From: a virus
Taxonomy: Duplodnaviria; Heunggongvirae; Uroviricota; Caudoviricetes
DNA: 64,000 nucleotides
Direction: 5' to 3' (one strand)
IMG/VR virus record: IMGVR_UViG_3300031998_000037
Shown piece by piece: positions 1,947 to 60,264 of the stretch (position 1 is its first letter; every line of letters begins with the position of its first letter). Below the pieces are notes generated by a model, which ran no database searches, was not told the DNA's origin, and worked only from the letters and a program-made list of their open reading frames with translations. The translations under genes and the position numbers were made by a program.

Positions 1947-1959
1947 GGAACTCAGTTCC
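1947..1959. promoter_or_regulatory. GGAACTCAGTTCC 13-bp palindromic intergenic motif (copy 1), followed by CCAAAAAAAAA and the RBS of the SPFH gene
   Basis: exact palindrome seen; recurs at 16058, 16972, 20740, 20776, 20812 (AGAAC variant) and 54694. Confidence 0.6.
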
Positions 1960-16057: not shown

Positions 16058-16070
16058 GGAACTCAGTTCC
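16058..16070. promoter_or_regulatory. GGAACTCAGTTCC palindromic motif (copy 2), between dut and the HNH gene
   Basis: exact match, followed by TTTTCCAAAAAAA. Confidence 0.6.
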
Positions 16071-16699: not shown

Positions 16700-16971
16700 A
16701 GTTTCGCAAAAGGTTCTCCAAATTTCCTCAAATATGAATTTGGTGCAACTTTGGTGCAACTCTTGACAAACCGCTTTCCCCGTACTATAATATACATAAG
16801 GTCACAGGTTTGTCGGACTTCTGTGACTGTCAAGCCACTTGCAAATGTAGTAACCAACTGCGTTTGCATAAAGGAACCCCAAGAGATCACGGCTCTTGGG
16901 GTTTTATCTATAACTCATAATAATACAAAAGTCAACTAATTTATTAGCCATAGCTTTCATTTTTTTGGCTT

Positions 16972-16984
16972 AGGAACTCAGTTC
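16972..16984. promoter_or_regulatory. GGAACTCAGTTCC palindromic motif (copy 3), at the convergent junction between the + module and rep
   Basis: exact match, flanked by TTTTTTT and AATTCAAAAATTTT. Confidence 0.6.
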
Positions 16985-16988
16985 CAAT

Positions 16989-18062
16989 TCAAAAATTTTC
17001 TCTTTGTTTATCACGTTCAGCCTTTAACATAGCCCTAAAATAACTGTAACGGTTAGCGATATTTTGCTGTTCAGATATAGCATTAAAGTGAGTATATTGT
17101 TCCTGTAAATAATGATACCTTGCAAACCCAATGCCAAGAGGATGTTCAGGCATATCCGTAGAAAATACAATTGCAAGCAGACTTTCCATTTCTTTTACTG
17201 AAAATTCATTATTACAAGCACCTGAGAAAAAGTCAAGTTCAACATCTTGTGTCTCTATTTCTTCTTTAATCTTGTCAACATCAATTAAATCTGAAAATCC
17301 CTCAAAGATAGGAATTTGTTTTTGAGCTGGTTCATTTTTAGTGATAGTAAACACAATAGATATCCACCTACCACCTGCACCTGTCTTGCCGCGCTCATAG
17401 GTATAGCTAATGTCTGTAAGTTCCTTTAAAGCCTTTTGACAGCTATCGAGTACATACTTTTTAAATAAAGACCAACCATTTTTATTTGAATATTCAGTTT
17501 CGGCAATACCGAGCAATTCTCTAAGTTCTTTTACAGGTATCTCTCTCTTCCCTATATTCTCGTATTGTTTTAAAATTTCATACATTCTAATTTGATTTGC
17601 TGATTTAAGGATCAGTGCATTCCAAAGTTCGTACTTAAAATATCTCTCTTTAAAATCAAACATTAAAGGCAATGCTTTATCGTGGGCATCTATCTGAACA
17701 TACCATTCGCCGTCCTCATTCTTATCAACTTCACATTCTTTAAAAAGCTGAAATCCAGAATATCCGCCACTCTCTTTTGGTATATTGACAACCTTACAAA
17801 GTAAGCTATTAGTGCTTGATTTAAGTTGCTGAATATTCATTCTACTAAACCCCATGATCTTCTGGAAGTCAGACAGTGGGAATCGAACAATTCTTGTTGA
17901 CTCATCTCTGGGGTTTATCTTAGATAGATAAATCGAAAAAAAGCGTAACTCTTGTAAGGATAGATTATTGGCTCTAATCTCGTTAAGGATATTTCTTTTT
18001 TCTACTATAGCTCCCTCATAAATAGTAGACATATATATCACCTCAATATTATTATAACACAC
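16989..18062 (-). CDS. rep: plasmid-type replication initiator (RepA_N-like)
   Basis: 357 aa whose N-terminal region resembles Firmicute theta-plasmid RepA_N; iterons lie immediately upstream. Confidence 0.6.
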   Translation of the reverse strand: MCYNNIEVIYMSTIYEGAIVEKRNILNEIRANNLSLQELRFFSIYLSKINPRDESTRIVRFPLSDFQKIMGFSRMNIQQLKSSTNSLLCKVVNIPKESGGYSGFQLFKECEVDKNEDGEWYVQIDAHDKALPLMFDFKERYFKYELWNALILKSANQIRMYEILKQYENIGKREIPVKELRELLGIAETEYSNKNGWSLFKKYVLDSCQKALKELTDISYTYERGKTGAGGRWISIVFTITKNEPAQKQIPIFEGFSDLIDVDKIKEEIETQDVELDFFSGACNNEFSVKEMESLLAIVFSTDMPEHPLGIGFARYHYLQEQYTHFNAISEQQNIANRYSYFRAMLKAERDKQRENF

Positions 18063-18063
18063 A

Positions 18064-18215
18064 TTCTATAGATTGTCAATGCTATCTATAGTATTATGCA
18101 ATGAAATCTATAGAATCGTGCAATACAATCTATAGTATCTTGCAATGAAATCTATAGAATTGTGCAATACAATCTATAGAATTGTGCAATACAATCTATA
18201 GAATCGATTCCGCAA
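18064..18215. repeat. iteron array: ~7 tandem 22-bp repeats (consensus AATCTATAGAATYGTGCAATAC)
   Basis: counted by eye at 22-bp periodicity, directly upstream of rep; 2 further copies at 18411-18448. Confidence 0.8.
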
Positions 18216-18410
18216 AGGTGCTATTTTAGGTCGTTTACGATAACCGAAAATATATATAAAATAAATAAAATACTTCTAAAACATCTTTCAAACTATCATG
18301 GAGCAAAAACTGATATTAATTTAAGACTTAAAGAAATAAAATTGGCAAAACAACCAAAACATAAATATAAAATTCATTATCAAACGAATTATAAAGTACA
18401 ATTCAATCAT
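18216..18410. other. AT-rich spacer between iteron groups (putative DNA unwinding element/origin)
   Basis: extreme AT content between the two iteron sets. Confidence 0.5.
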
Positions 18411-18448
18411 CTATAGAATTGTGCAATCAAATCTATAGAATTGAAAAT
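18411..18448. repeat. two additional iterons (ATCTATAGAATTG...)
   Basis: same repeat family as 18064-18215. Confidence 0.7.
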
Positions 18449-18652
18449 TAATGTCCGTAATTTAGAAAATCAATGTCCGTAATTAAAACTTTATGTTAAA
18501 ATTAAATGGCATTATTTGATGACTAAATTTGTCTTTTGCAGATAAATGTCCTATTTTATTATACGCAAAATAGGCAAGAAAAACACTTTGCAGAAATCTG
18601 TCCTATTTAGAAAATCAATGTCCGTAATTAAGAAAATTTATGTCCGTAATTA
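18447..18652. repeat. parS-like repeats: 4 copies of ATGTCCGTAATTA plus 2 degenerate TGTCCTATTT copies, downstream of parB
   Basis: copies at 18447, 18469, 18617 and 18639; the pairs are spaced 22 bp apart. Confidence 0.6.
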
Positions 18653-18664
18653 ATCTTGTTTAAC

Positions 18665-19867
18665 TTACGAGCAATGATTATTCCTATAACTATCCATCAA
18701 TTCCTGAATAGTTTTAAGTTCCTCAGCAGGGTTCATATCCAGCAATCTTTTGATTGCGGTATCAACGGCTTGAACTTCCTTGATAATCTTTTTGCTTTGA
18801 GCGATCTTGCCAGACTTATCCTTCTGAGCATCGTCAAGTCCCTTTTCGGCAGAGAAGATAGTATTCGTAAATATCTTCTTTACCTCACTATTTTGCTTTT
18901 GAGTTTTGAGATCAATGTCGCGGTCAAGCTGTTCAAGAGCTGCATTGTACTTAGCAACACTCTTTTCAATACTTGCCTTACGGGATTCAAGCTCAGGCGA
19001 TTGTTCTATATCAAGCTCCTTGTTGATATTTGCAAGCTCCTCATTTGCTTGTAAAAGCCTTCCATTATAATACATACGCGAGGTTTTATCTTTTGAAAGA
19101 GAAGTGTTTGTCTTTGAAATAATATTCTTAGCCTGTTTTGCAAAAGCGAGTGTGTGCTCGATAGCATATTTCTTAGTCTCAGGATCAGCGTTGTCCGCAG
19201 CCTTTAGAATATCATTGGCATAGTTCTGATATTCTTCTGGGAGCTGCGCAAGTGAAGCAGCCGTGTTGATATCAATAGCATCCGCATAGAGCAATTCCTT
19301 TAAAGGATTGATAAGCTCAGACGTAATGGCGATAAGCTTATTAGCCTGACGTTCACTGACATTAAAAGCCTGTGAAACATACTCTTTAAATTTTTGAGCC
19401 GCCTCTCGTTCAGCGGTTTCATCAAACTGCTTTATCTTAGCGAGAAAGCCTTCAATGATTTGAACCTTTTCTTCAATGCTATATTCTCTTGTTTCACTAT
19501 TGGCAAAGAAAAGCATTTTGAGAATTTCGAGCTGAGAAAGATTGCTTCTTACAGTCGCCTTAATCTTATCGCGTCCGAGGTACTTGACAGCCTTTGTGCG
19601 GCGTTCTCCAGATATGAGCAAGTATTTCGTAGGCTCTATCTTTGCAACCACAATATTATGCAGCAAGCCGTTCTCTTTGATATTCTCAGCAAGTTCTGCA
19701 ATGCCCTCGTCAGAGTCGCCCATATTGAAAATGTTATCCTGATTAAAAACGATTTGATCTATGGGGATAATATCAGTTGTCTCGATAGACTCCTGTTCCT
19801 TTTTGACGCTATCAGCAAGCTCATTAAAGCGGCTCAACGCCTTGTCGGTGTTTAACTTCTTAGCCAT
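18665..19867 (-). CDS. parB: ParB-family partition protein
   Basis: N-terminal ParB/Srx-like box ending in 'GERRTKA'; long helical C-terminus; translationally coupled to parA. Confidence 0.7.
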   Translation of the reverse strand: MAKKLNTDKALSRFNELADSVKKEQESIETTDIIPIDQIVFNQDNIFNMGDSDEGIAELAENIKENGLLHNIVVAKIEPTKYLLISGERRTKAVKYLGRDKIKATVRSNLSQLEILKMLFFANSETREYSIEEKVQIIEGFLAKIKQFDETAEREAAQKFKEYVSQAFNVSERQANKLIAITSELINPLKELLYADAIDINTAASLAQLPEEYQNYANDILKAADNADPETKKYAIEHTLAFAKQAKNIISKTNTSLSKDKTSRMYYNGRLLQANEELANINKELDIEQSPELESRKASIEKSVAKYNAALEQLDRDIDLKTQKQNSEVKKIFTNTIFSAEKGLDDAQKDKSGKIAQSKKIIKEVQAVDTAIKRLLDMNPAEELKTIQELMDSYRNNHCS

Positions 19868-20664
19868 TAATTAACGCCCCCTAAAATGATATTTTCAAGC
19901 TCCTCAGCGACAGCCAGATAATCAGCCGTGACTTTTTCATTCTTGGCATAATTTATCAATGGGTTGTGATCCGTAAGGCTCTTCTCTACAATGGTCGTCT
20001 TTCTGATCTCGGTATTAAAGAAATGGTATGATGTAAGATTAGCCTTGAATTGTTCAAGGTAAAAGTTCTGAGCTGCCGTGTTCTCCTTCTTTGTAAAAAG
20101 CAGCCCAGCGATTTTGAGATTTGGGTTGACATATTGCTGAATGTTTGTGATAAATTCATTCATGGCGAAGATACTGTCAATGCCGTACTCAGTCGCCTCG
20201 CAAGGCAGCACGGTATAGTTACTTGCTGTGAGGGCGTTTGTGGTTAAATTATTACGTGCAGGTGGGCAGTCGATAAAAACATATTCATATTCATCCTGTA
20301 TCTCTGTAAGCTTATTCTTTAAAATAAACTCTCTTGCTATTGGCAAAGCTGATAATTCAGTATCAGCCTTATCCAGATTGACGTTAGACGGCAGCAAATC
20401 AAGCCCGTCAATGTCAGTACCTATGGTAGCTTTACGGACGCTTAAATCGCCACATATGACATTGTAGACGCTTACCTCGTCTTTGCTGAGAAACTTTCCG
20501 AGGTAAGTTGTGGCATTTGCTTGCGGATCAAGGTCAACAAGTAGCACCTTTTTGTTTTTAATTTTAGCAAATATTGCAGCAAGGTTTACACTCGCCGTGG
20601 TTTTGCCAGCACCACCTTTACGGTTCAATAAAGAAATCGTAATCATTAATTTTGCTCCTTTCAC
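19867..20664 (-). CDS. parA: ParA/Soj-family partition ATPase
   Basis: deviant Walker A 'NRKGGAGKTT', 'VLLVDLDPQ'. Confidence 0.85.
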   Translation of the reverse strand: MKGAKLMITISLLNRKGGAGKTTASVNLAAIFAKIKNKKVLLVDLDPQANATTYLGKFLSKDEVSVYNVICGDLSVRKATIGTDIDGLDLLPSNVNLDKADTELSALPIAREFILKNKLTEIQDEYEYVFIDCPPARNNLTTNALTASNYTVLPCEATEYGIDSIFAMNEFITNIQQYVNPNLKIAGLLFTKKENTAAQNFYLEQFKANLTSYHFFNTEIRKTTIVEKSLTDHNPLINYAKNEKVTADYLAVAEELENIILGGVN

Positions 20665-20739
20665 TGTTTGAGTGTTTGACTGTTTGCTTCTTTCATTATA
20701 TCACACTTTATTTTAAAATGCAAGAGTTTTTTTGAAAAA

Positions 20740-20824
20740 GGAACTCAGTTCCTAAGCCAAAATTTTTTTGAAAAAGGAACTCAGTTCCCAGAGCAAAATT
20801 TTTTTGAGAAAAGAACTCAGTTCC
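20740..20824. promoter_or_regulatory. three tandem copies of the palindromic motif (GGAACTCAGTTCC x2, AGAACTCAGTTCC x1), each between T- and A-runs; upstream of parAB and downstream of the lysis genes
   Basis: copies at 20740, 20776 and 20812, ~36 bp apart. Confidence 0.65.
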
Positions 20825-20880
20825 TAAGCCAAAAAAATAGGGTACAGCAAGTCCATAATAAGACCTGTTGTACCCTAAGT

Positions 20881-50621: not shown

Positions 50622-52470
50622 AACGTTTGGCTGGTCGAGCCATAAATAGTGTTGTTATATCCTGAACAGGCTGTTGTTTAACAACACTGCCTCTTCTTAA
50701 TTCATATAACCTATGTGCTAAAAGTATCAACACATAAAATCTATCATCGTGCATACGTGTTTCTTTTTCCTTAGATAGAGCATAATTTACAGTTGTCTTT
50801 TCAGCGTTTTGTGTTTTATGAATTGATGTTACTTCTGTTTTCATTAGGTCAATTTGAACTAATGCCATTTTTTCATCATCCGATAGCTCATGGTTTTCCC
50901 ATGTCTCATTACCATCTTTATCAACGCCAGTTATAACCTTTAATGAATCTTGCCCTGAGTATTCATAAGGGAATCTGATTACACCCAAATCCATTAACTC
51001 AATCATTTCTTCAACCATTTGAGTTCTGTATTTCTTTGGGCTAATAACTCTTAATTTATCACAAGCATTAGGGTAACGGTTGACAAAGCTTTGATACAAC
51101 TCATTGGTCTTATCAATAAAGCCTCGATGCTTCTTTCCAAATTTATCTGTATAATCATTCAGCAAGCCGTCAGCATATGTACTTACGCCGCCGCCAGCCG
51201 CACCAGCATCAACATTCAAAACATCTATATATTCATAATCTGGGTTTTGACCGTTATAGCATATTATCAATTTGCGCAGCTCTTCTAATTGCCTATTGGA
51301 GTCCAGCTTGTATTTTTGCTTTGTGAAAGTATCTACCATATTAACGCAATTTATTATATCTCCGCACCATCCAAGCTCTTTATCCTTATATATATTCATA
51401 ACACCCACAATTGAATTATCGTTTGTTCGCGCTGGATCAAACGCCAAAGCTATTCTGCTATTGGGCTGCCATTTAAGTGTAGGCAAATAGAACTTTTCAT
51501 TTCTGCGAATTACGTCCCACTTTATTATCTGACTACTTCCGCCGTCAGCAGTAGGCTGGTTGAAATACTCTCTAAGGGCTTTTTCTTTATTGCTCTTCAA
51601 AGCTGTCTCAACCTTGCTTCTTGTAAGCAGAGGAATATATGGCTCACCATTCATGTATGTCTGAATTGCAACATCGCATATCATATCACATACAAAATAG
51701 TCCCTATCTCCAGCAAGCATTCTCTTAGCATAATATTTGTAATGCTTATAGAATGTCTTATCCATCTGATCTTGCGATGATGCATATACCAGTTGTGTAG
51801 GTACTCTTCTCTTTTCAGTCTCAGGGTTAAAGTCATCTTCGGTAGAAGTTATAAAGTCTGTATTTTGCATAGCAAATGCTTCACAAACACTTATAAGCTC
51901 GTCAGAACAGAATGCGGCTTCATCAAAGAAAACAAGAGTTGCACGGCGGCTTCTTGCGGAGTCTGGTTTACTGTTCAGGGTATGAATTGTACTGCCATTA
52001 TAAAACTCTACTGAATAACCTGCTGGGTTGTGGCTAAAGCCTGTTTTATTCGTTGCAGATTTTGTTGTTTCCTTTTCAACAATATCCTTTAATGAACGAA
52101 TAGAGGCAGCCGTCTTTCCCATGCGTGTAACAATTTCTTCTATCTTTGTAAAGGTTTCCTTAGACTGATCTCCGACAGACGATATGATATATATAGCCTG
52201 ATTTTCATAAAGGACTGCTTTGAGTATCATAAATATTGCGCCCAAAAATGATTTACCAAAGTTACGACTACAGCACCATACACTATGTTGGGCATTCCAT
52301 GTACTTTGCAATATCCATTTCTGCGCATCAATCAAACGAATGCCGAGTAAGTCCTCACACGCAATACAAGGATTTCGCCTATAAAAAGCTATAGACTCAG
52401 CATCTAATTCATATATTCTTTTTTTTATCGGTGTGAGAATGATTTTACGCCTCTTCATCACTATCACCAT
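50614..52470 (-). CDS. terL: terminase large subunit
   Basis: 618 aa; Walker-B-like 'TLVFFDEAAF'; position in front of the portal. Confidence 0.65.
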   Translation of the reverse strand: MVIVMKRRKIILTPIKKRIYELDAESIAFYRRNPCIACEDLLGIRLIDAQKWILQSTWNAQHSVWCCSRNFGKSFLGAIFMILKAVLYENQAIYIISSVGDQSKETFTKIEEIVTRMGKTAASIRSLKDIVEKETTKSATNKTGFSHNPAGYSVEFYNGSTIHTLNSKPDSARSRRATLVFFDEAAFCSDELISVCEAFAMQNTDFITSTEDDFNPETEKRRVPTQLVYASSQDQMDKTFYKHYKYYAKRMLAGDRDYFVCDMICDVAIQTYMNGEPYIPLLTRSKVETALKSNKEKALREYFNQPTADGGSSQIIKWDVIRRNEKFYLPTLKWQPNSRIALAFDPARTNDNSIVGVMNIYKDKELGWCGDIINCVNMVDTFTKQKYKLDSNRQLEELRKLIICYNGQNPDYEYIDVLNVDAGAAGGGVSTYADGLLNDYTDKFGKKHRGFIDKTNELYQSFVNRYPNACDKLRVISPKKYRTQMVEEMIELMDLGVIRFPYEYSGQDSLKVITGVDKDGNETWENHELSDDEKMALVQIDLMKTEVTSIHKTQNAEKTTVNYALSKEKETRMHDDRFYVLILLAHRLYELRRGSVVKQQPVQDITTLFMARPAKRYD

Positions 52471-53572
52471 TCTTTAATTTTTGAATTTCCAAAAGCAGTT
52501 GCCTTTTTTCCTCTTGTAAATCATCTACCTTTTCCTGAAGTTTAGTAACCATTTCTCTTTTTATTCCATCAATTTCACGCAAGTCATTTTCATCAAAGAA
52601 TGTATTTTTCTGTATTGCATTCATTGATACTTCTGCCGCCCATCTTGTGCCAGCAGATTTAAGTTGATCGTAATAATCTGCCTCAGCTCTATCAAAATTC
52701 TTCTCGCGCAGATTTCGCATGAGATAAGTAAGAGTTGATTTGCCAGCATCTTTATTTGACCTGTTCTTTACAGATATCTCATTTTCCTTTGCAATCTTAT
52801 CATTTGACATAACAAGCCTGCTTTTTAATTCATTAAGGGCTTGGATATCTTTGCTATCACTTAAAGGTTTAAGTTGTGCAATCAGCAAGTCATACTGTCT
52901 GATCTGATTATTATTATTTACTATCTGAATTATCTGAGACATCTTATAGTTATCTTCTACGACCTCATCATCATCAAGATACTTAACAAGCTCGCTAAAC
53001 AGATAACGCCTGTCCGACGATTGATAACCTGCAAACGGATCATAGCCTATAACCTCAATTACTGTTTGCATATTATTCTGTTCTTCCTCAGTCCAGTTTG
53101 CCTCAAACATTTCGTCAGTTTCTTGCTTTGACCTCAAAAACTTTTCATTATTAATTGACGACATAATATAGTCAACAAAAGTTTTATTTTTGTTTTGCGA
53201 TAGGTTAAGCCGCTTTATATATTCCCCAAGTCGTATATCCTCACGGCTTTTCTCTTTCATTTGCAGATATGTTTTTTCTGAGAAGAACCAACCCATTTCA
53301 CAACAAGTTACCAATAAAGCAACTTCTTCGTCCTGATATTTCTCTTTCATTCTGCCAAAGAAATCATCACAGCAGCAAGCACATATTGTACTGTAATTTT
53401 CATTTCCATTATATAGTGCATTCTGTGCAACCTTGAAAAACTTGCCTTCAGGATCTTGGACAAGCTTGCCGCAGCAAGAGCACTTATATAATGGCGGCAA
53501 TGTCTCCAAATCTACCTTTGCATATTTAGGCTGCTTTTTTCTTGTTGAAGTTTGTTTTGTACTTCTTGCCAA
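52445..53572 (-). CDS. putative terminase small subunit/DNA-binding protein with zinc ribbon and C-terminal coiled coil
   Basis: position upstream of terL; 'CSCCGK...' motif; larger than a typical TerS. Confidence 0.3.
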   Translation of the reverse strand: MARSTKQTSTRKKQPKYAKVDLETLPPLYKCSCCGKLVQDPEGKFFKVAQNALYNGNENYSTICACCCDDFFGRMKEKYQDEEVALLVTCCEMGWFFSEKTYLQMKEKSREDIRLGEYIKRLNLSQNKNKTFVDYIMSSINNEKFLRSKQETDEMFEANWTEEEQNNMQTVIEVIGYDPFAGYQSSDRRYLFSELVKYLDDDEVVEDNYKMSQIIQIVNNNNQIRQYDLLIAQLKPLSDSKDIQALNELKSRLVMSNDKIAKENEISVKNRSNKDAGKSTLTYLMRNLREKNFDRAEADYYDQLKSAGTRWAAEVSMNAIQKNTFFDENDLREIDGIKREMVTKLQEKVDDLQEEKRQLLLEIQKLKNGDSDEEA

Positions 53573-54693: not shown

Positions 54694-54706
54694 GGAACTG
54701 AGTTCC
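54694..54706. promoter_or_regulatory. GGAACTGAGTTCC palindromic motif (reverse-orientation copy) followed by AATTCAAAAAAAA, upstream of the GT2-terminase operon
   Basis: exact reverse complement of the other copies. Confidence 0.6.
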
Positions 54707-54934
54707 AATTCAAAAAAAACGGTGTAGGGGTTCGCACACCGCAAAGCGAAAATTGTATCATTCGCTCATGCCCACGTACTTTGCATACGTTTAGACGTAA
54801 ATCGGGGTTATGAGCTATACAGCAGTTTTATGTCCTCTGCAAGACATGGTGACGATTGCGAGACTTGAACTCAGCATTGCGCCCGTGAAAGGGGCGTGTC
54901 CTACCTTTAGACGAAACCGCCACAATAATGCGCA

Positions 54935-54956
54935 CGTTTGCATTGTCCTGCAAACG
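54935..54956. repeat. inverted repeat CGTTTGCA-N6-TGCAAACG, flanked by direct repeats ATAATGCGCA (54925-54934 and 54959-54968)
   Basis: seen in sequence. Confidence 0.6.
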
Positions 54957-54986
54957 GTATAATGCGCATTGTTGCAAGCCGAAAAT

Positions 54987-55020
54987 CAAAGTATCGTTTG
55001 TGCGCACAAACGATACTTTG
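54987..55020. repeat. 34-bp perfect palindrome CAAAGTATCGTTTGTGC|GCACAAACGATACTTTG
   Basis: seen in sequence; both halves are exact reverse complements. Confidence 0.85.
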
Positions 55021-55284
55021 CAAGAGGTGCTTACAAAGCTCTTTTCATGGTTATTAAAGTAAACCTCAATAACCTTTCAACAATATCTTCCTTGAACTGG
55101 CAAGGACACCAATCTAAATGCTCGTAAAGAGCTGAGTATTAAAGACCTTGCGTGGGACACTTCTACGAGAGGTGTGCAAGGTTCTTCTCAGTGAGCTTTT
55201 TTATTTTTATAAGGACGTGGCTCTACGTCCTTATCTTCTGAGAAAACATAGCTTTTGCAATATAACGTGTTCGATGTTATACTA

Positions 55285-55358
55285 TTGGTTGCAGCTCTTA
55301 GAATCGAACTAAGAACATAAGGGTATGAACCTTATATGATACCATTTCACCAAACTGC
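55285..55358 (-). tRNA. tRNA-Met/fMet-like (anticodon CAT) with a C1-A72 mismatch
   Basis: manual fold: acceptor CGCAGTT/AGCTGCA, D-arm GTGA-AATGGTA-TCAT, anticodon arm TAAGG-TTCATAC-CCTTA, 4-nt variable loop, T-arm CTTAG-TTCGATT-CTAAG, then ACCA. Confidence 0.6.
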
Positions 55359-55416
55359 GGCATGACAGGTTAGTTATAGTCCAACCTTCACGAATGACTT
55401 CTCCCGTCAGGAGGAG

Positions 55417-55492
55417 TGGTGTCAAAAGCAGGGGTTGAACCTGCGACCTTCGCCTTATCAAGACGCTGCTCTGCCAACTGAGCTATTCTGAC
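55417..55492 (-). tRNA. tRNA-Ile (anticodon GAT)
   Basis: manual fold: acceptor GTCAGAA/TTTTGAC, D-arm GCTC-AGTTGGCA-GAGC, anticodon loop TTGATAA, T-arm GCAGG-TTCAACC-CCTGC, then ACCA; 76 nt. Confidence 0.75.
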
Positions 55493-56323: not shown

Positions 56324-57394
56324 TTAATTCAGAACTATATTATAGAATTGACAAAGTTCATCGTCCTCAGCAATTGCCATGAGCTGAGTGGGCTTACCCT
56401 TTAATCGCTTTTCAATTGTGTAGTCATTTCCGCTGCCACACAGACTTCCACCGCGACATATCTTTACATCATAACAATCATCAACTGCAAAACTATGAAG
56501 ATGTCCCATAAAAATAGCAGTAGGTTTATATCCCTTAGCGAGAACAAGGTTAGATAATCCCGACTTGCTGAAAGAATCATTGTCGCCATGTACAAACCAG
56601 TAACCGCCAATTTCAGCAAATGTAGTGTCATTTGGTTTTACATAAGTGAAGTTAGAATAACCATCTAAATGAGTTGAGACAAACCAACCTATAAGGTTGT
56701 CCATACGCTCATCTTTAATAGCTTCATCTTTCTTATCCATACGAGAATGATTTCCGCAGATATTTGTAAAGGTAACAAAGAAGCCCTTAGTTAAAAATGC
56801 CTTTACAAATCCAAGCATCAGTTCACTTGCAAGCATAATCTGTTGAATAACATTTTCTCTGTTTGTAACAGCTATGCTTCTATGTATGTTCCCACTAACC
56901 AGATCACCTAAGCCAGCTATAATTACATTAGTTACACCCTCTGAATGACATCTTTGAATAGCCTTACTTGCATATTCACTTATGCGATCACGGGCTATTT
57001 CTGAGCTATAGTTTCCCCATTCATTATTAAAGCATTCGCCTATATGCCAGTCAGAACAAGTAATGATTGCAGTCTTTTGGGTATTATTCTTTCGGACTGT
57101 AATCTGTAAATCTGTCGGGTTGTTTTTTTTGATTACCCCTTCAAGATAGTCAAGCTTCTGTTCAACTCTTGCGGTGTTATAATTCTGCTTTTGCCAAGCG
57201 TTACGCTCATCACGGAACTGTATTTTTGCTCTTTCAAGTTCACGCTTCTGCAAGTCAATTTCCTTACAGGCATCAGTGCTTGTAGCAAAGATATCTTTGC
57301 AAGCTGAATACATACGATCAAAATATTGCCAAGTTTTTCTGAAACAGCTTTCAGAATATGATGTGCCAAATCTCTTATTAAGTAAATCCGCCAC
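56324..57394 (-). CDS. calcineurin-like metallophosphoesterase
   Basis: 'IIAGLGDLVSGNIHR', 'GNHSRMD', 'FMGHLHSF' metal-ligand motifs. Confidence 0.6.
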   Translation of the reverse strand: MADLLNKRFGTSYSESCFRKTWQYFDRMYSACKDIFATSTDACKEIDLQKRELERAKIQFRDERNAWQKQNYNTARVEQKLDYLEGVIKKNNPTDLQITVRKNNTQKTAIITCSDWHIGECFNNEWGNYSSEIARDRISEYASKAIQRCHSEGVTNVIIAGLGDLVSGNIHRSIAVTNRENVIQQIMLASELMLGFVKAFLTKGFFVTFTNICGNHSRMDKKDEAIKDERMDNLIGWFVSTHLDGYSNFTYVKPNDTTFAEIGGYWFVHGDNDSFSKSGLSNLVLAKGYKPTAIFMGHLHSFAVDDCYDVKICRGGSLCGSGNDYTIEKRLKGKPTQLMAIAEDDELCQFYNIVLN

Positions 57395-57523
57395 CTCATT
57401 CCAGTCCTTATATAATTCTTTTCTGGAACATACTTCATATATTGTACGTAACTGCTCTGTAGTAAATTTAGCCTTAATAGCCCATTCCTCCCTTTTACTG
57501 AATCTTGATTCACTAAATCATAA

Positions 57524-57712
57524 TTAGGCAAGATCAAGCGATTCAGTTATGCTCATTGAAACTTCAGCACCATCAAACTCAGCCAGCACTTCACCAAGCT
57601 CTCTTGCCTCGTCATCCTCTAATTCAACAAGTATAGCATTATTGCTTTTATCAACATTTAGAATGCCAACAATACTAACGCTACGCTTGTGTTTAATTCC
57701 TAATTTTCCCAT
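57524..57712 (-). CDS. small acidic protein
   Basis: ORF. Confidence 0.3.
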   Translation of the reverse strand: MGKLGIKHKRSVSIVGILNVDKSNNAILVELEDDEARELGEVLAEFDGAEVSMSITESLDLA

Positions 57713-57721
57713 ATTATCTCC

Positions 57722-59146
57722 TTATATTTCAAACCTATCTCCCATTACAGGTGTGTGTACTTTTGAACTTCTATCCGCAAAACTTAAACTTTTGCGGAGC
57801 ATTTTTGAAAACTCTATCTTACCAGCCTTTTCCCCATGAACAAGATATATTTTGTCATATGGCATATCTGTATATCTTTGCAATAATTCCTTTTGGCAAG
57901 CATGACTTGAAAAGGAGTTGAGACAAACTACATTTGCATTGTTCTTAACCTTTACGCCGTCAATCTCTACATAGCGTTTATTATGTTGTATTTGATATGC
58001 TACAGATTTTTCATCACCAGCATAACCGCAAAAACATAATCTGTTTTCACTATCTGGTAGAATAGATTTAAGCCATCCAATAATACGACCTGCCTTTAAA
58101 AAGTTAGAAGTCGATATTACAACCTGACTTGTTTTGAGCTGCTGCCATGCGATGCTATCCTCAGATGTGTCAACCCATTCTATATTTTTCCATGATATTA
58201 CTTTTTTCCAAAGGTCATAATCCTTTTCAATAACCCTATCCCAAACATTGCTTACCTTTTTTGCAAGCGGTGCATCTATGACAATAGGTGTGCTGAAAGT
58301 TTCATCATGCCCATATATCTTATAAAGCTCGGTCAAAATTTCCTGAGTACGCTGTAAGCTGAATGCACCAAACACAACCTTTTTTGTGTTTTGTTGACAG
58401 CATTGATCTATAACCGTTTTTATCTTTTCAATATCTTTATCTCTATCCTTTTGCTTGTGTGACTTTGTGCTGCCACCATATGTACATTCAGCTATGACGG
58501 CATTTGCATAAGGCATAGGTTCATAAGGCAGAATATAGTCTTTATTAATATCACTGCCAATGTCGCCTGTATAATTCAGATACTTTATTGTTTCACCAAG
58601 CTTAAAGGTAAGCCTGATTTGTGCCGCATTGACGATATGTGCGGCGTGATAAAAACGTAAAGTGAGATCATCAAAAAGAACTATCTCCTCATTAAATGGC
58701 AGCTCGGTAAGATGCTCATATGCCATATCTATATCAGATTGCTCATATAAAGGCGTTGCTTTTATACCATGACGCTTTTCAAGCTTTACACAATCAGATT
58801 GAAATATCTTTGCGCTATCCTCCCACATGATTTTAGCAAGCGGCTTTGAATTTTGAGGCACGTAAACGTTGCCTCTATATCCACGCTTGAACAGATAGGG
58901 GACAAGCCCCCAGTGGTCAAGATGTTGATGCCCTATAATAACGGCATCTAAATCTGCAAAGGGGACTTTATAGTTTCGCTTATTCACTGTATATTGGGTA
59001 AGGACATCATCACCAGAAGTCTGGTACAAGCCAGCATCAAGCAAAATCTGCTTATCATTAAAGGTAATGTAATACATTGAACCTGTAACGCCATCGCCAG
59101 ATTTGCCAACGATTTCAACCCTTACCTTGTTTTTGCTTTTGCTCAT
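57722..59146 (-). CDS. MBL-fold beta-CASP-type nuclease/hydrolase
   Basis: 'IIGHQHLDHWG' HxHxDH motif; 474 aa. Confidence 0.6.
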   Translation of the reverse strand: MSKSKNKVRVEIVGKSGDGVTGSMYYITFNDKQILLDAGLYQTSGDDVLTQYTVNKRNYKVPFADLDAVIIGHQHLDHWGLVPYLFKRGYRGNVYVPQNSKPLAKIMWEDSAKIFQSDCVKLEKRHGIKATPLYEQSDIDMAYEHLTELPFNEEIVLFDDLTLRFYHAAHIVNAAQIRLTFKLGETIKYLNYTGDIGSDINKDYILPYEPMPYANAVIAECTYGGSTKSHKQKDRDKDIEKIKTVIDQCCQQNTKKVVFGAFSLQRTQEILTELYKIYGHDETFSTPIVIDAPLAKKVSNVWDRVIEKDYDLWKKVISWKNIEWVDTSEDSIAWQQLKTSQVVISTSNFLKAGRIIGWLKSILPDSENRLCFCGYAGDEKSVAYQIQHNKRYVEIDGVKVKNNANVVCLNSFSSHACQKELLQRYTDMPYDKIYLVHGEKAGKIEFSKMLRKSLSFADRSSKVHTPVMGDRFEI

Positions 59147-59775
59147 ATTATCAAATCCAAATCTGTAAGTATTTCATCAACACAGCCAAGTTCAAGCTGT
59201 TGATCCACAGACAAATACCAGTCGCGGCTCTGGTTCTTTTTCATAAGGTTCTTATCAATCTTTGTCTTACTGATAATAAGCTCACGCATTTCCTCAACCA
59301 TTTTCTTATACGATTTAGCGTTTTCCTGAACTTCTTCAAAAGTTCCTGATATACCACTTGCACTACCACTATGAATAAGTACCTGAGAACGCGGCATACA
59401 ATATCTCTTATGTCCTGCAATAAGCAGAAGTCCAGCCGCACTATAAGCGCAATTTGTATTGACTGTGTAAACTGGTGTCTTTGAAGCCTCTATAATTGCA
59501 ACAGTTGCATATGTAGAGTCAAGGCATCCGCCGCATGAGTTTATAAGAATTACTACAGGTTTTCTCTTTTCTACAGGCAAGCCCTTGTCCTTACGGTTGT
59601 ACTCTATAATCTGTCTGCCGACATCACGCATAAGCTCTTCGTCAATATCATAGTCAATATAAATGACGCGATTTTGTCTGTCCTCATAGACATCTAAAAG
59701 TTCAGGGGAGGGGAGCTTTAAATCCCCAATATCCTTTGGTATGATAATATCTAATAACTGTAAGCTTTCTCCCAT
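59143..59775 (-). CDS. ClpP-family (S14) serine protease
   Basis: 'VILINSCGG', 'CAYSAAGLLLIAG', 'LIHSG' and a later Asp match ClpP's INSPGG / GxAASMG / MIHQP; the Ser-His-Asp positions align. Confidence 0.7.
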   Translation of the reverse strand: MGESLQLLDIIIPKDIGDLKLPSPELLDVYEDRQNRVIYIDYDIDEELMRDVGRQIIEYNRKDKGLPVEKRKPVVILINSCGGCLDSTYATVAIIEASKTPVYTVNTNCAYSAAGLLLIAGHKRYCMPRSQVLIHSGSASGISGTFEEVQENAKSYKKMVEEMRELIISKTKIDKNLMKKNQSRDWYLSVDQQLELGCVDEILTDLDLII

Positions 59776-59840
59776 TTTTAATTTCCTCGCTTATTTAAAA
59801 TTACAGTCGTCCGACTGCCCCCTATATTTCATAGAGGATA

Positions 59841-60059
59841 TTAGTTGTTAGGGTATGTCTCAACAACCTTAATAGTCTTGCGGTAGCTTTCCAGCAAGTC
59901 TAAGATGTGCTTATCGTCGGGGCAGTAATACTTGCCGCGTGACTTCCCCTTACGCTTTAATCTGCAAGTCCGAGTGCATATAATGCCGTGGTCTGCTAAG
60001 AACTTTGCTTCATCGCGTGTAATTTGATTCATTATTTTTTCACTACTTTCTCTTGACAA
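59841..60059 (-). CDS. small basic protein
   Basis: ORF. Confidence 0.3.
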   Translation of the reverse strand: MSRESSEKIMNQITRDEAKFLADHGIICTRTCRLKRKGKSRGKYYCPDDKHILDLLESYRKTIKVVETYPNN

Positions 60060-60264
60060 ATATATGTCTTTTATGATATGATAAAAAGAGAAGTTTACGC
60101 ATTTATATAATTAAATAAAATAATAAAAACAAGGAGTATAAGTTGAACGTGTCTTATACTCCCTTCGTTTTTATTGAGTTGCTAATGCGGTGATAGCCTC
60201 TCCTTCATATTGCCCCAACTTTTTATAGAACAGATGTTCTTTTACGGCGAGTTATAGGCAATAA

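What the first reader, a model, noticed from the sequence alone, without database searches (positions are those of the whole stretch)
16989..20664. Plasmid-prophage maintenance module (Rep + iterons + AT-rich DUE + ParAB + parS) inside a tailed-phage genome, with no integrase in the window
A RepA_N-like initiator is preceded by about nine 22-bp iterons split into two groups around a ~190-bp very AT-rich spacer. Next to it is a parA-parB operon followed by four ATGTCCGTAATTA repeats that look like parS sites. Together with complete structural and lysis genes and the absence of any recombinase, this points to a phage that lysogenises as a low-copy plasmid (N15/P1-like lifestyle, but with Firmicute-type modules).
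Basis: partly seen in the sequence, partly recalled or inferred. Interest (0 to 1): 0.75.

Follow-up and report, generated by a model that had tools for sequence, protein, structure and literature searches.

The report
Plasmid-maintenance cassette in a rumen phage
A roughly 100-kb tailed phage from rumen metagenomes carries a plasmid-type replication and partition cassette exactly where sister phages carry an integrase, so it most likely persists in its host as a low-copy plasmid; this lifestyle is already known, and the phage is a new lineage of it.

Summary
The module is real. It contains a Rep_3-family initiator (not RepA_N). There are 8 direct 22-bp iterons plus one inverted half-iteron inside a perfect sigma-70 rep promoter. 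The iterons flank the most AT-rich 150 bp of the whole genome. A parA-parB operon follows, and ParB has the GERR CTP-binding motif.

The window is part of a circular 99.6-kb assembly. Outside the window the genome encodes two tyrosine-recombinase-like genes, so "no recombinase" holds only for the window.

The plasmid-prophage reading is still the best one. Two sister phages (L040, L044) carry Xis + integrase + HTH in exactly this slot, and they also keep the Xer-like recombinase. Three others (L042, L043, L136) carry parA-parB in the slot, and rep follows it in the two loci long enough to show it.

The proposed parS is probably wrong. The four ATGTCCGTAATTA repeats are 22-bp iterons of another Rep type. 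In L042 and L128 they are the resident iterons and overlap the rep promoter. L136, whose ParB is 71% identical, lacks them.

A 13-bp palindrome, GGAACT(C/G)AGTTCC, is the better centromere candidate. It brackets the cassette in every ParAB-type locus, whatever the Rep type, and is absent from the integrase-type sisters.

Verdict: a new member of a known kind (phage-plasmid). Interest is moderate.

The parts
16973..16985 (.). Palindrome GGAACTCAGTTCC lying 4 bp beyond the rep stop codon. It marks the right-hand boundary of the cassette and is a candidate ParB site.
   Evidence: The same position is occupied in L042, L128 and L136.
16989..18032 (-). rep: a Rep_3-family initiator of 347 aa with WH1 and WH2 domains.
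   Evidence: Pfam Rep3_N 2e-23 and Rep3_C 1e-7. About 30% identical to plasmid Rep proteins of Firmicutes. 71% identical to the Rep of ~17-kb elements.
18051..18079 (-). rep promoter, TTGACA-17-TATAAT with a TG extension (12/12 match). The inverted half-iteron at 18063-18076 lies inside it and is a putative autorepression operator.
   Evidence: (repeats I16/I17).
18084..18215 (+). Six tandem 22-bp A-type iterons, ATCTATAGAATTGTGCAATACA (the last is a half-unit).
   Evidence: Copy number differs by one unit between assemblies.
18216..18408 (.). AT-rich spacer of 193 bp (77% AT; 81% over 18247-18396). Putative DNA-unwinding element.
   Evidence: it holds the most AT-rich 150 bp of the 99.6-kb genome. 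No DnaA box with <=1 mismatch.
18409..18452 (+). Two further A-type iterons on the far side of the AT-rich spacer.
18443..18486 (+). They match the iterons of the L042/L128 type of Rep.
18535..18608 (+). Two C-type repeats (18535-18556 and 18587-18608), TTTGCAGAnAnnTGTCCTATTT. They match the iterons of the L136 type of Rep.
   Evidence: (family D7).
18610..18653 (+). Second pair of B-type 22-bp repeats, ending 12 bp from the parB stop codon.
18665..19867 (-). parB: 400 aa, with a ParB_N domain carrying the GERR motif, an HTH, and a long C-terminal part that looks helical by eye (not analysed).
   Evidence: nearest solved structures are Noc, Spo0J and KorB. 54-72% identical homologues sit on many 95-150-kb contigs.
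19867..20646 (-). parA: 259 aa, deviant Walker A motif KGGAGKT, no N-terminal HTH.
   Evidence: AAA_31 5e-50 and CbiA. NCBIfam ParA_partition and PHROG 164.
20695..20723 (-). Putative parA promoter, TTGCAT-17-(TGa)TATAAT. The extended -10 element and the leader are conserved in four other ParAB-type loci.
   Evidence: Read from the sequence and from the upstream regions of L042, L043 and L128 and L136. The promoter scan did not list it because its -35 element matches only 3/6.
20727..20834 (.). Three tandem 36-bp units, each carrying a GGAACTCAGTTCC palindrome (20740, 20776, 20812). They sit just upstream of the parA promoter and are the best centromere/operator candidate.
   Evidence: (family D3).
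16058..16070 (.). Dispersed copy of the palindrome, between the dUTPase and HNH genes. Further copies lie at 1947-1959 and 54694-54706, and one lies outside the window just after the Xer-like gene.

Best explanation
The segment at about 16960-20840 is the lysogeny-maintenance cassette of a temperate siphovirus that persists as a low-copy circular plasmid (a phage-plasmid).

Inferred mechanism:
- Replication. A constitutive sigma-70 promoter drives rep. Rep monomers load on the A-type 22-bp iterons on both sides of the AT-rich spacer and open it, giving theta replication by host enzymes.
- Copy control. Rep bound to the inverted half-iteron inside its own promoter represses rep. Iteron-iteron pairing limits copy number.
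- Partition. ParB, a CTP-type HTH protein, most likely loads at the GGAACT(C/G)AGTTCC palindromes: three next to the parA promoter, one just after rep, and four dispersed in the genome. ParA then segregates the copies. ParB at the promoter-proximal sites would autoregulate parAB.
- Other repeats. The B-type (ATGTCCGTAATTA) and C-type repeats are iterons of other Rep types. They are either left over from rep-cassette swaps or act as incompatibility determinants. They are not the centromere.
- Supporting functions. The Xer-like recombinase outside the window plausibly resolves multimers. MazF-like and type-I-toxin-like elements plausibly add addiction.
- Lytic growth. It uses the phage's own DnaB-primase, Pol III alpha, SSB and recombination genes.

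What is shown: the sequence features, their conservation, and the slot swap between sister phages. What is inferred: every biochemical activity, and the extrachromosomal state itself.
For: Anatomy.

The genome is a circle with no bacterial flanks. The first and last 141 nt are identical and an independent Logan contig bridges the ends. The cassette was recovered in ENA, JGI and Logan assemblies.

Slot swap. Between the XhlA-like lysis gene and the dUTPase gene, L040 and L044 have HTH_17 Xis + a 344-aa Phage_integrase + an 80-aa HTH-like ORF (by eye; no Pfam hit). L042, L043 and L136 have parA-parB there; rep follows in L042 and L136, and the 3.2-kb L043 contig ends inside parB. L040 and L044 still carry the Xer-like recombinase (60% identity), so that gene is not the slot's integrase.

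Iterons co-vary with Rep:
- 72%, 68% and 45% Rep homologues each have their own 22-bp tandem repeats upstream.
- L042 and L128 have B-type repeats, with an inverted copy inside the rep promoter.
- L136 has C-type repeats with a 20%-identical Rep.

The palindrome is constant with ParAB across three Rep types and two unrelated backbones. It is absent from the integrase-type sisters.

The phage has separate replication genes of its own.

A related ParAB-Rep_3 cassette sits on a ~148.4-kb element recovered three times with permuted start points, one copy in a Ruminococcus MAG.

Literature: phage-plasmids may carry recombinases for dimer resolution (PMC7969092).
Against: - There is no direct evidence of an extrachromosomal prophage. 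A circular assembly is equally expected from circularly permuted virion DNA.
- The genome encodes two tyrosine-recombinase-like proteins that appear to keep the catalytic residues (R, K, HxxR, H, Y). For the 317-aa protein this rests on a PDB alignment. For the 335-aa protein it was read by eye.
- A complete tRNA gene lies 1.5 kb upstream of the Xer-like gene, so integration is not excluded.
- No repressor was identified.
- No DnaA box lies in the origin.
- The host is only inferred (Ruminococcus, from homologues).
- ParB binding to the palindrome is inferred from co-occurrence in five loci only. L042, L043 and L136 also carry a canonical-like parS, GTTTCATGTGAAAC, beside it, and the window genome lacks that site.
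Confidence: 0.72

Rival explanations
1. The phage integrates, or alternates between integrated and plasmid states. It would use the Xer-like 317-aa recombinase or the second 335-aa tyrosine recombinase encoded outside the window. The Rep/Par cassette would then be accessory.
For: Both proteins appear to keep the catalytic residues (the 335-aa protein was read by eye only). PHROGs files both under 'integrase'. A full tRNA gene lies close by. PMC7969092 notes that some phage-plasmids alternate between the two states.
Against: The Xer-like gene is also present in L040 and L044, which carry a dedicated Xis + Int pair in the lysogeny slot, so it is a backbone gene with another role. Every contig seen around it shows phage genes on both sides, in the same order. 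No bacterial junction was seen in any assembly. Its best matches are XerA/C/D-type resolvases, below the family cut-offs.
Confidence: 0.12
2. Rep plus iterons is the phage's vegetative (lytic) origin, like lambda O/ori. ParAB would serve another role, such as positioning phage DNA or pseudolysogeny. The phage would not be a stable plasmid prophage.
For: PHROG 4402 shows Rep_3-like proteins annotated as phage replication initiators. No other initiator was recognised in the genome. The cassette lies on the same strand as the late and lysis genes.
Against: Sister phages with the same backbone lack rep, iterons and parAB altogether and carry an integrase instead, so Rep is dispensable for lytic growth in this family. 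Rep has its own autoregulated sigma-70 promoter. Rep cassettes are swapped behind a constant parAB, a pattern typical of incompatibility-driven plasmid evolution. Close Rep relatives sit on small elements that carry their own iterons.
Confidence: 0.08
3. Sub-claim of the first reader: the four ATGTCCGTAATTA repeats are the parS centromere bound by ParB.
For: They lie directly downstream of parB, as sopC and P1 parS do. Three of the four copies are exact, and the motif occurs nowhere else in the genome. The motif is shared between the window and L042/L128, whose ParB HTH regions are nearly identical.
Against: The full 22-bp unit is 19/22 identical to the resident iterons of L042 and L128. There, about 11 copies flank an AT-rich stretch and an inverted copy sits between the -35 and -10 elements of the rep promoter. 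L136 has ParB 71% identical to the window's and no such repeat. The repeats are not palindromic, unlike the sites of HTH ParB proteins (established knowledge).
Confidence: 0.15
4. The cassette is an assembly chimera, or a dead hitch-hiking plasmid fragment.
For: There is no DNA-level match in the phage or plasmid reference collections. The closest Rep relatives are on small elements.
Against: The same junctions occur in independent ENA, JGI and Logan assemblies with 0 mismatches. All ORFs are intact, the promoters are perfect or conserved, and the cassette is kept in diverged sisters at 57-76% amino-acid identity.
Confidence: 0.03

Closest known systems
Phage-plasmids (P1, N15, SSU5 and the groups catalogued in PMC7969092 and PMC10879196)
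   Same: A complete tailed-phage genome plus a plasmid replicon, a partition system and addiction-like genes. A tyrosine recombinase may be kept for multimer resolution, as Cre is in P1. Replicase families are swapped at one position. Conversions between plasmid and integrative lifestyles are known.
   Different: None of the modules is homologous to P1 or N15. The assembly is circular with no telomerase-type domain in the lists seen, and the replicon is Rep_3 rather than RepA(P1) or RepA(N15). The backbone is SPbeta/Sundance/Tsamsa-like: portal 28-31% identity, YonO-type RNA polymerase, YonG/J/K homologues. The likely host is rumen Ruminococcus. There is no DNA-level relative in the phage or plasmid reference sets.
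Rep_3 iteron theta replicons (pPS10 RepA, F RepE, R6K pi; RepB/Rep_3 plasmids of Firmicutes)
   Same: WH1 + WH2 Rep. 22-bp direct iterons beside an AT-rich region. An inverted half-iteron overlapping the rep promoter, for autorepression.
   Different: Only about 30% identical to plasmid Rep proteins, and no solved structure is detectable by sequence. No DnaA box. Iterons lie on both sides of the AT-rich stretch. Two foreign iteron families sit beside the resident one.
KorB/OB of RK2 and the dispersed parS sites of N15 (from established knowledge)
   Same: A ParB-family HTH protein with a CTP-binding N-terminal domain (KorB appears among the PDB hits). Candidate sites are 13-bp 6-1-6 palindromes, like OB (TTTAGCSGCTAAA). 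They lie just upstream of a -35 element and are dispersed at intergenic positions around the genome.
   Different: Binding is untested. ParB here is 400 aa with a long C-terminal extension. No KorA-like partner was recognised. Sequence similarity to KorB is weak (E = 9e-4).
SPbeta-like temperate phages (serine integrase SprA, MrpR/SPBRE repressor; PMC10516654)
   Same: YonO-type RNA polymerase, YonG/J/K-like late genes, Pol III alpha, a large siphovirus genome, and a repeated intergenic palindrome.
   Different: No serine recombinase was found. The 335-aa recombinase-like protein appears to keep the catalytic residues (read by eye) and does not match MrpR (8A0A) by sequence. The repeated palindrome follows ParAB, not the phage backbone.

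Membership tests
   A Pfam scan at E <= 0.01 returns only Rep3_N and Rep3_C.
Rep_3 iteron replicon | Rep with WH1 (Rep3_N) and WH2 (Rep3_C) domains | tested here: met
   83.7 and 32.4 bits, both above the curated cut-offs.
Rep_3 iteron replicon | Tandem direct iterons of about 22 bp next to rep, specific to each Rep | tested here: met
   Eight direct copies in 22-bp phase. Homologous Reps carry different 22-bp repeats.
Rep_3 iteron replicon | AT-rich unwinding region adjacent to the iterons | tested here: met
   193 bp at 77% AT. It includes the most AT-rich 150 bp of the genome.
Rep_3 iteron replicon | Inverted iteron operator overlapping the rep promoter | tested here: met
   The inverted copy at 18063-18076 lies inside the 12/12 promoter at 18079..18051. 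The same design occurs in L042, L128 and L136.
Rep_3 iteron replicon | DnaA box in the origin (common but not universal) | tested here: not met
   No TTATCCACA with <=1 mismatch between 18033 and 18664.
Rep_3 iteron replicon | Autonomous replication of rep plus iterons | not testable with these tools
   Needs a mini-replicon experiment.
ParABS partition (Walker ParA + CTP-type ParB) | ParA with the deviant Walker A motif KGGxGK[ST] | tested here: met
   NRKGGAGKTT in the translation. AAA_31 5e-50.
ParABS partition (Walker ParA + CTP-type ParB) | ParB N-terminal domain with the GERRxR arginine patch | tested here: met
   PF02195 at 4e-12. ISGERRTKA in the sequence. PDB hits to Noc, Spo0J and KorB.
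ParABS partition (Walker ParA + CTP-type ParB) | Cognate centromere bound by ParB | tested here: inconclusive
   The palindrome GGAACTSAGTTCC co-occurs with ParAB in 5 loci and is absent from the integrase-type sisters. Binding itself is untested.
Phage-plasmid | Full set of virion, packaging and lysis genes | tested here: met
   TerL, portal, tape measure and tail protein. M23 endolysin and an XhlA-like protein.
Phage-plasmid | Plasmid replication and partition genes in the same molecule | tested here: met
   (a single circular contig).
Phage-plasmid | Prophage maintained extrachromosomally in lysogens | not testable with these tools
   Only indirect evidence: the slot swap with integrase in sister phages and circular assemblies.
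N15-like linear plasmid prophage | Protelomerase and a telomere site; linear genome | tested here: not met
   The contig closes on itself with a 141-nt overlap. No telomerase-type domain appears in the precomputed Pfam lists or my scans. Protelomerase was not searched for specifically.

The most novel reading that the evidence does not exclude
The parB-rep spacer records, or may arm, replicon competition. Besides its own A-type iterons it keeps well-preserved arrays of the iterons used by two sister replicons: B-type (as in L042 and L128) and C-type (as in L136). These could titrate the Rep proteins of competing phage-plasmids and exclude them. Meanwhile the true centromere would be a KorB-OB-like palindrome scattered through the phage genome, coupling partition-protein loading to phage gene expression. 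The lysogeny slot would then be a hot spot where integrase cassettes and parAB + rep cassettes are exchanged, and rep cassettes are exchanged behind a fixed parAB.
Probability: 0.25. Interest if true: 0.65.

Novelty: new member of a known kind. Interest (0 to 1): 0.5.

Why it matters
Phage-plasmids are well documented in enterobacteria, Bacillus and Clostridium. My two literature searches found no paper describing one from rumen or gut Ruminococcus-type hosts.

This lineage offers a clean natural comparison. Sister phages with the same backbone carry either Xis + Int or parAB + rep in one slot, and three different Rep/iteron cassettes sit behind one conserved parAB. That makes three questions directly testable:
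- how temperate phages switch between integrative and plasmid lysogeny;
- how replicon incompatibility drives cassette turnover;
- which DNA sites a CTP-type ParB uses on a phage genome.

It also provides a candidate replicon and partition toolkit for rumen Clostridia, which are hard to manipulate genetically. None of this overturns current concepts.

Tried and rejected
- blastn of the cassette and of 24 kb of structural genes against the phage and plasmid collections gave no match.
- Rep and ParB searches in IMG/VR found no relative. A ParA alignment found only relatives at <=39% identity, too distant to help with parS.
- Rep against the PDB by sequence: no hit.
- Idea: the 335-aa recombinase-like protein is an MrpR/YopR-type repressor and the palindrome an SPBRE-like operator. 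Rejected for three reasons. The protein appears to keep R, K, HxxR, H and Y (read by eye). It has no sequence match to 8A0A. The palindrome travels with ParAB on an unrelated backbone (L128) and is missing from the integrase-type sisters.
- Idea: the palindromes are intrinsic terminators. Rejected, because T-runs precede and A-runs follow them on either strand.
- Idea: the palindromes are sites for the Xer-like recombinase. Rejected, because L040 has the Xer-like gene and nothing at the equivalent position.
- DnaA boxes in the origin: none.
- Rfam on the cassette and on the 2.2-kb gene-free region: only chance-level hits.
The look-up did accept protein ids returned by the cluster-member listings, and that reached the rest of the contig.

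Full report
**1. What is at 16989-20664**

All three ORFs are on the minus strand.
- rep (16989-18032, 347 aa) hits Pfam Rep3_N (2e-23) and Rep3_C (1e-7), not RepA_N.
- parB (18665-19867) has a ParB_N domain. The GERR motif is visible in ISGERRTKA.
- parA (19867-20646) is a 259-aa Walker ATPase (KGGAGKT) with no N-terminal HTH.

Between rep and parB lie 632 bp with 75% AT. The core ATCTATAGAAT (<=1 mismatch) occurs 10 times in the window against about 3 expected. Nine copies sit at 18063-18441 in strict 22-bp phase. In order:
- an inverted half-iteron (18063-18076) inside a 12/12 sigma-70 promoter with a TG extension (18079..18051, minus strand);
- six tandem units (18084-18215);
- a 193-bp spacer of 77% AT, containing the most AT-rich 150 bp of the whole 99.6-kb genome (81%);
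- two more units (18409-18452).

No DnaA box (<=1 mismatch) lies in this region. ATGTCCGTAATTA occurs four times, only at 18451-18652.

**2. The rest of the genome**

Exact-protein look-ups place the window on a 99,751-bp ENA contig and a 99,886-bp JGI contig. The ENA contig's first and last 141 nt are identical, and a Logan contig bridges the ends, so the assembly is a 99.6-kb circle with no bacterial flanks. The window has one more 22-bp iteron than the ENA contig, so the array varies in copy number within the population.

The 36 kb outside the window encode:
- a Sak-type annealing protein, SSB, a PD-(D/E)XK nuclease, a DnaG-DnaB fusion and Pol III alpha, which form a separate phage replication set;
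- a MazF-like protein;
- two tyrosine-recombinase-like proteins.

The 317-aa recombinase is Xer-like. An alignment to XerD shows R, K, HxxR, H and Y in place. The 335-aa protein also appears to keep these residues, judged by eye. A complete tRNA gene lies 1.5 kb upstream of the Xer-like gene. No recombinase domain appears in the structural block. The statement "no recombinase" is therefore true of the window only.

The backbone is a large siphovirus with TerL, portal and tape measure. It has SPbeta-like markers: a YonO-type RNA polymerase and YonG/J/K homologues. The nearest named portals are 28-31% identical (Brevibacillus phage Sundance and the Bacillus Tsamsa group).

**3. The decisive comparison: one slot, two kinds of cargo**

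Relatives were found through the endolysin and through ParB homologues. All share the order tail genes - holin - M23 endolysin - XhlA-like gene - [slot] - dUTPase and early genes.
- In L040 (IMG/VR, 45 kb) and L044 (111-kb contig) the slot holds an HTH_17 excisionase-like gene, a 344-aa Phage_integrase and an 80-aa HTH-like ORF (by eye; no Pfam hit).
- In the window and in L042 (115.6-kb contig), L043 and L136 it holds parA-parB. Rep_3 follows in the window, L042 and L136; the 3.2-kb L043 contig ends inside parB.

L040 and L044 also carry the Xer-like recombinase (60% identity). That gene therefore belongs to the backbone and is not the integrase of the lysogeny slot.

These observations show three things:
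- the family is temperate;
- Rep and iterons are not needed for its lytic replication;
- the ParAB-Rep cassette occupies the functional place of integration.

Together they are the main support for the plasmid-prophage reading. The literature agrees that phage-plasmids often keep recombinases for dimer resolution (PMC7969092) and that conversions between plasmid and integrative forms occur (PMC10879196).

**4. Iterons follow Rep; the proposed parS is an iteron**

Rep homologues at 72%, 68% and 45% identity each have their own 22-bp tandem repeats just upstream.

L042 belongs to the same phage family. L128 is a ~148.4-kb element recovered three times with permuted starts, once in a Ruminococcus MAG, and shares only ParA, ParB and Rep with this phage. 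In both, the repeats in front of rep are TTAATTACGGAC(w)TT..TTTCC. There are about 11 copies around an AT-rich stretch, with an inverted copy between the -35 and -10 elements of the rep promoter. The window's four "parS" units are 19/22 identical to these.

L136 has ParB 71% identical to the window's. It lacks these repeats. It has about 12 copies of AAATGGAACAnnTnTCTGCA and a Rep only 20% identical to the window's. The window's two "degenerate" repeats (18535-18556 and 18587-18608) belong to this third family.

The spacer therefore reads B B C C B B A A | AT-rich | A x6 | A-inverted. Only the A-type matches the resident rep operator.

The identities point to a swap of rep plus its iterons behind a conserved parAB.

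| Comparison | ParA | ParB | Rep |
|---|---|---|---|
| Window vs L042 | 76% | 65% | 58% |
| Window vs ParAB-less ~17-kb elements (L025, L028) | - | - | 70-71% |

The B and C arrays may be relics or may be functional incompatibility determinants. I cannot decide which.

**5. A better centromere candidate**

GGAACT(C/G)AGTTCC (<=1 mismatch) occurs at 7 intergenic sites in the window against 0.05 expected, and at 8 sites in the whole genome.
- Three tandem copies (36-bp units, 20727-20834) lie 16 bp upstream of the -35 element of the parA promoter.
- One lies 4 bp after the rep stop codon.
- The other four are intergenic.

The same palindrome core, GAACTNAGTTC, lies just upstream of the parA promoter in L042, L043, L128 and L136. 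It also lies right after rep in L042, L128 and L136. This holds whatever the Rep type and on an unrelated backbone.

It is absent from 18.8 kb of syntenic sequence in each integrase-type sister, including the spot after the Xer-like gene where this phage has a copy.

It is not terminator-like, because T-runs precede it and A-runs follow. A 6-1-6 palindrome next to a -35 element recalls the KorB operator OB (established knowledge). KorB, Noc and Spo0J are the nearest solved relatives of the ParB N-terminal domain.

I put ParB binding to this palindrome at about 0.55, and to the B-type repeats at about 0.15. One caveat: L042, L043 and L136 also have GTTTCATGTGAAAC, a near-canonical chromosomal parS, beside the palindromes, and the window genome has none.

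**6. Verdict**

The finding is real and its lifestyle interpretation is probably right (0.72). Three details are wrong or unproven: the Rep family, the identity of parS, and the absence of recombinases. No data here show the prophage state directly. A circular assembly fits virion DNA as well as a plasmid.

The element is a new lineage of a known kind, the phage-plasmid. It probably lives in rumen Ruminococcus. That host is inferred from homologues only.

Its interest lies in the natural cassette exchange (Int/Xis versus ParAB-Rep, and three Rep types behind one ParAB) and in the testable centromere prediction.

Noticed in passing
window 16763-16910 (+) and 16802-16882 (-): A perfect sigma-70 promoter (16763-16791) precedes a ~115-nt three-hairpin RNA that ends in an intrinsic terminator (z = -5.8, no Rfam family). 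Antisense to it is a 26-aa TTG ORF, MGFLYANAVGYYICKWLDSHRSPTNL. In L042 and L136 the same position next to rep holds complete type-I-toxin-like units: a 32-aa peptide (MRYIFSFVVAVMARLVGDCVGKWLDRHFKSDK) with a strong RBS and a convergent sRNA promoter. The window unit may be an orphan antitoxin RNA or a decayed addiction module.
   Followed up: partly
window 18443-18653: The parB-rep spacer carries iterons of two other Rep types (B-type x4, C-type x2) arranged B B C C B B beside the resident A-type array. They may be relics of rep-cassette swaps or decoys acting against competing replicons.
   Followed up: partly
window 1947-1959, 16058-16070, 54694-54706; composite genome position 7201 (L021 7201-7213): Dispersed copies of the GGAACTSAGTTCC palindrome sit within a longer TTTTGG..CCAAAA symmetric context, just upstream of gene starts. 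One lies directly after the Xer-like recombinase gene.
   Followed up: partly
L042 10343, L043 1828, L136 ~1561: A near-canonical chromosomal parS, GTTTCATGTGAAAC, sits among the palindromes upstream of parA in three sister cassettes. It is absent from the window genome and from L128.
   Followed up: partly
L009 2810-5018 (outside the window, ~6.3-8.5 kb beyond its right end): A 2.2-kb stretch with no called gene lies between the divergent gene blocks. It has GC-richer parts that look structured by eye, and several short repeats. There is no Rfam hit even at E <= 1.
   Followed up: partly
L021 1353-3007 and 6235-7188 (outside the window): A divergent 335-aa tyrosine-recombinase-like gene overlaps the start of a 232-aa MazF-like protein that has an N-terminal HTH. 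A 317-aa Xer-like recombinase lies 3 kb further on. A complete tRNA gene sits at L021 4690-4760.
   Followed up: partly
window 54847-55492: Three tRNA genes (Glu, Met, Ile) and a match to the Rfam 6A sRNA family (RF02925, 48.7 bits; 55186-55236) lie between the structural and late-regulatory blocks.
   Followed up: no
window 56324-62904: A YonO-type single-subunit RNA polymerase (PF05183; 60265-62904) is accompanied by ClpP, a beta-CASP nuclease and YonK/YonJ homologues; a YonG-like gene lies further along at 52445-53572. This is an SPbeta-like late-transcription module in a phage that has no serine integrase.
   Followed up: no
L025-L030 (Rep homologues, 68-72% identity): ~17-kb elements carry a Rep_3 with its own 22-bp iterons, a D5-type primase-helicase, HicAB, a NikA-like protein and an HK97-gp10-like head-tail protein. 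They may be small phage-like or satellite plasmids and the donor clade of the window's rep.
   Followed up: no
L128-L132: A ~148.4-kb element was recovered three times with permuted starts, one copy in Ruminococcus sp. MAG GCA_017961625.1. It carries the same palindrome-bracketed parA-parB-Rep_3 cassette on an unrelated backbone, so the cassette is portable.
   Followed up: partly
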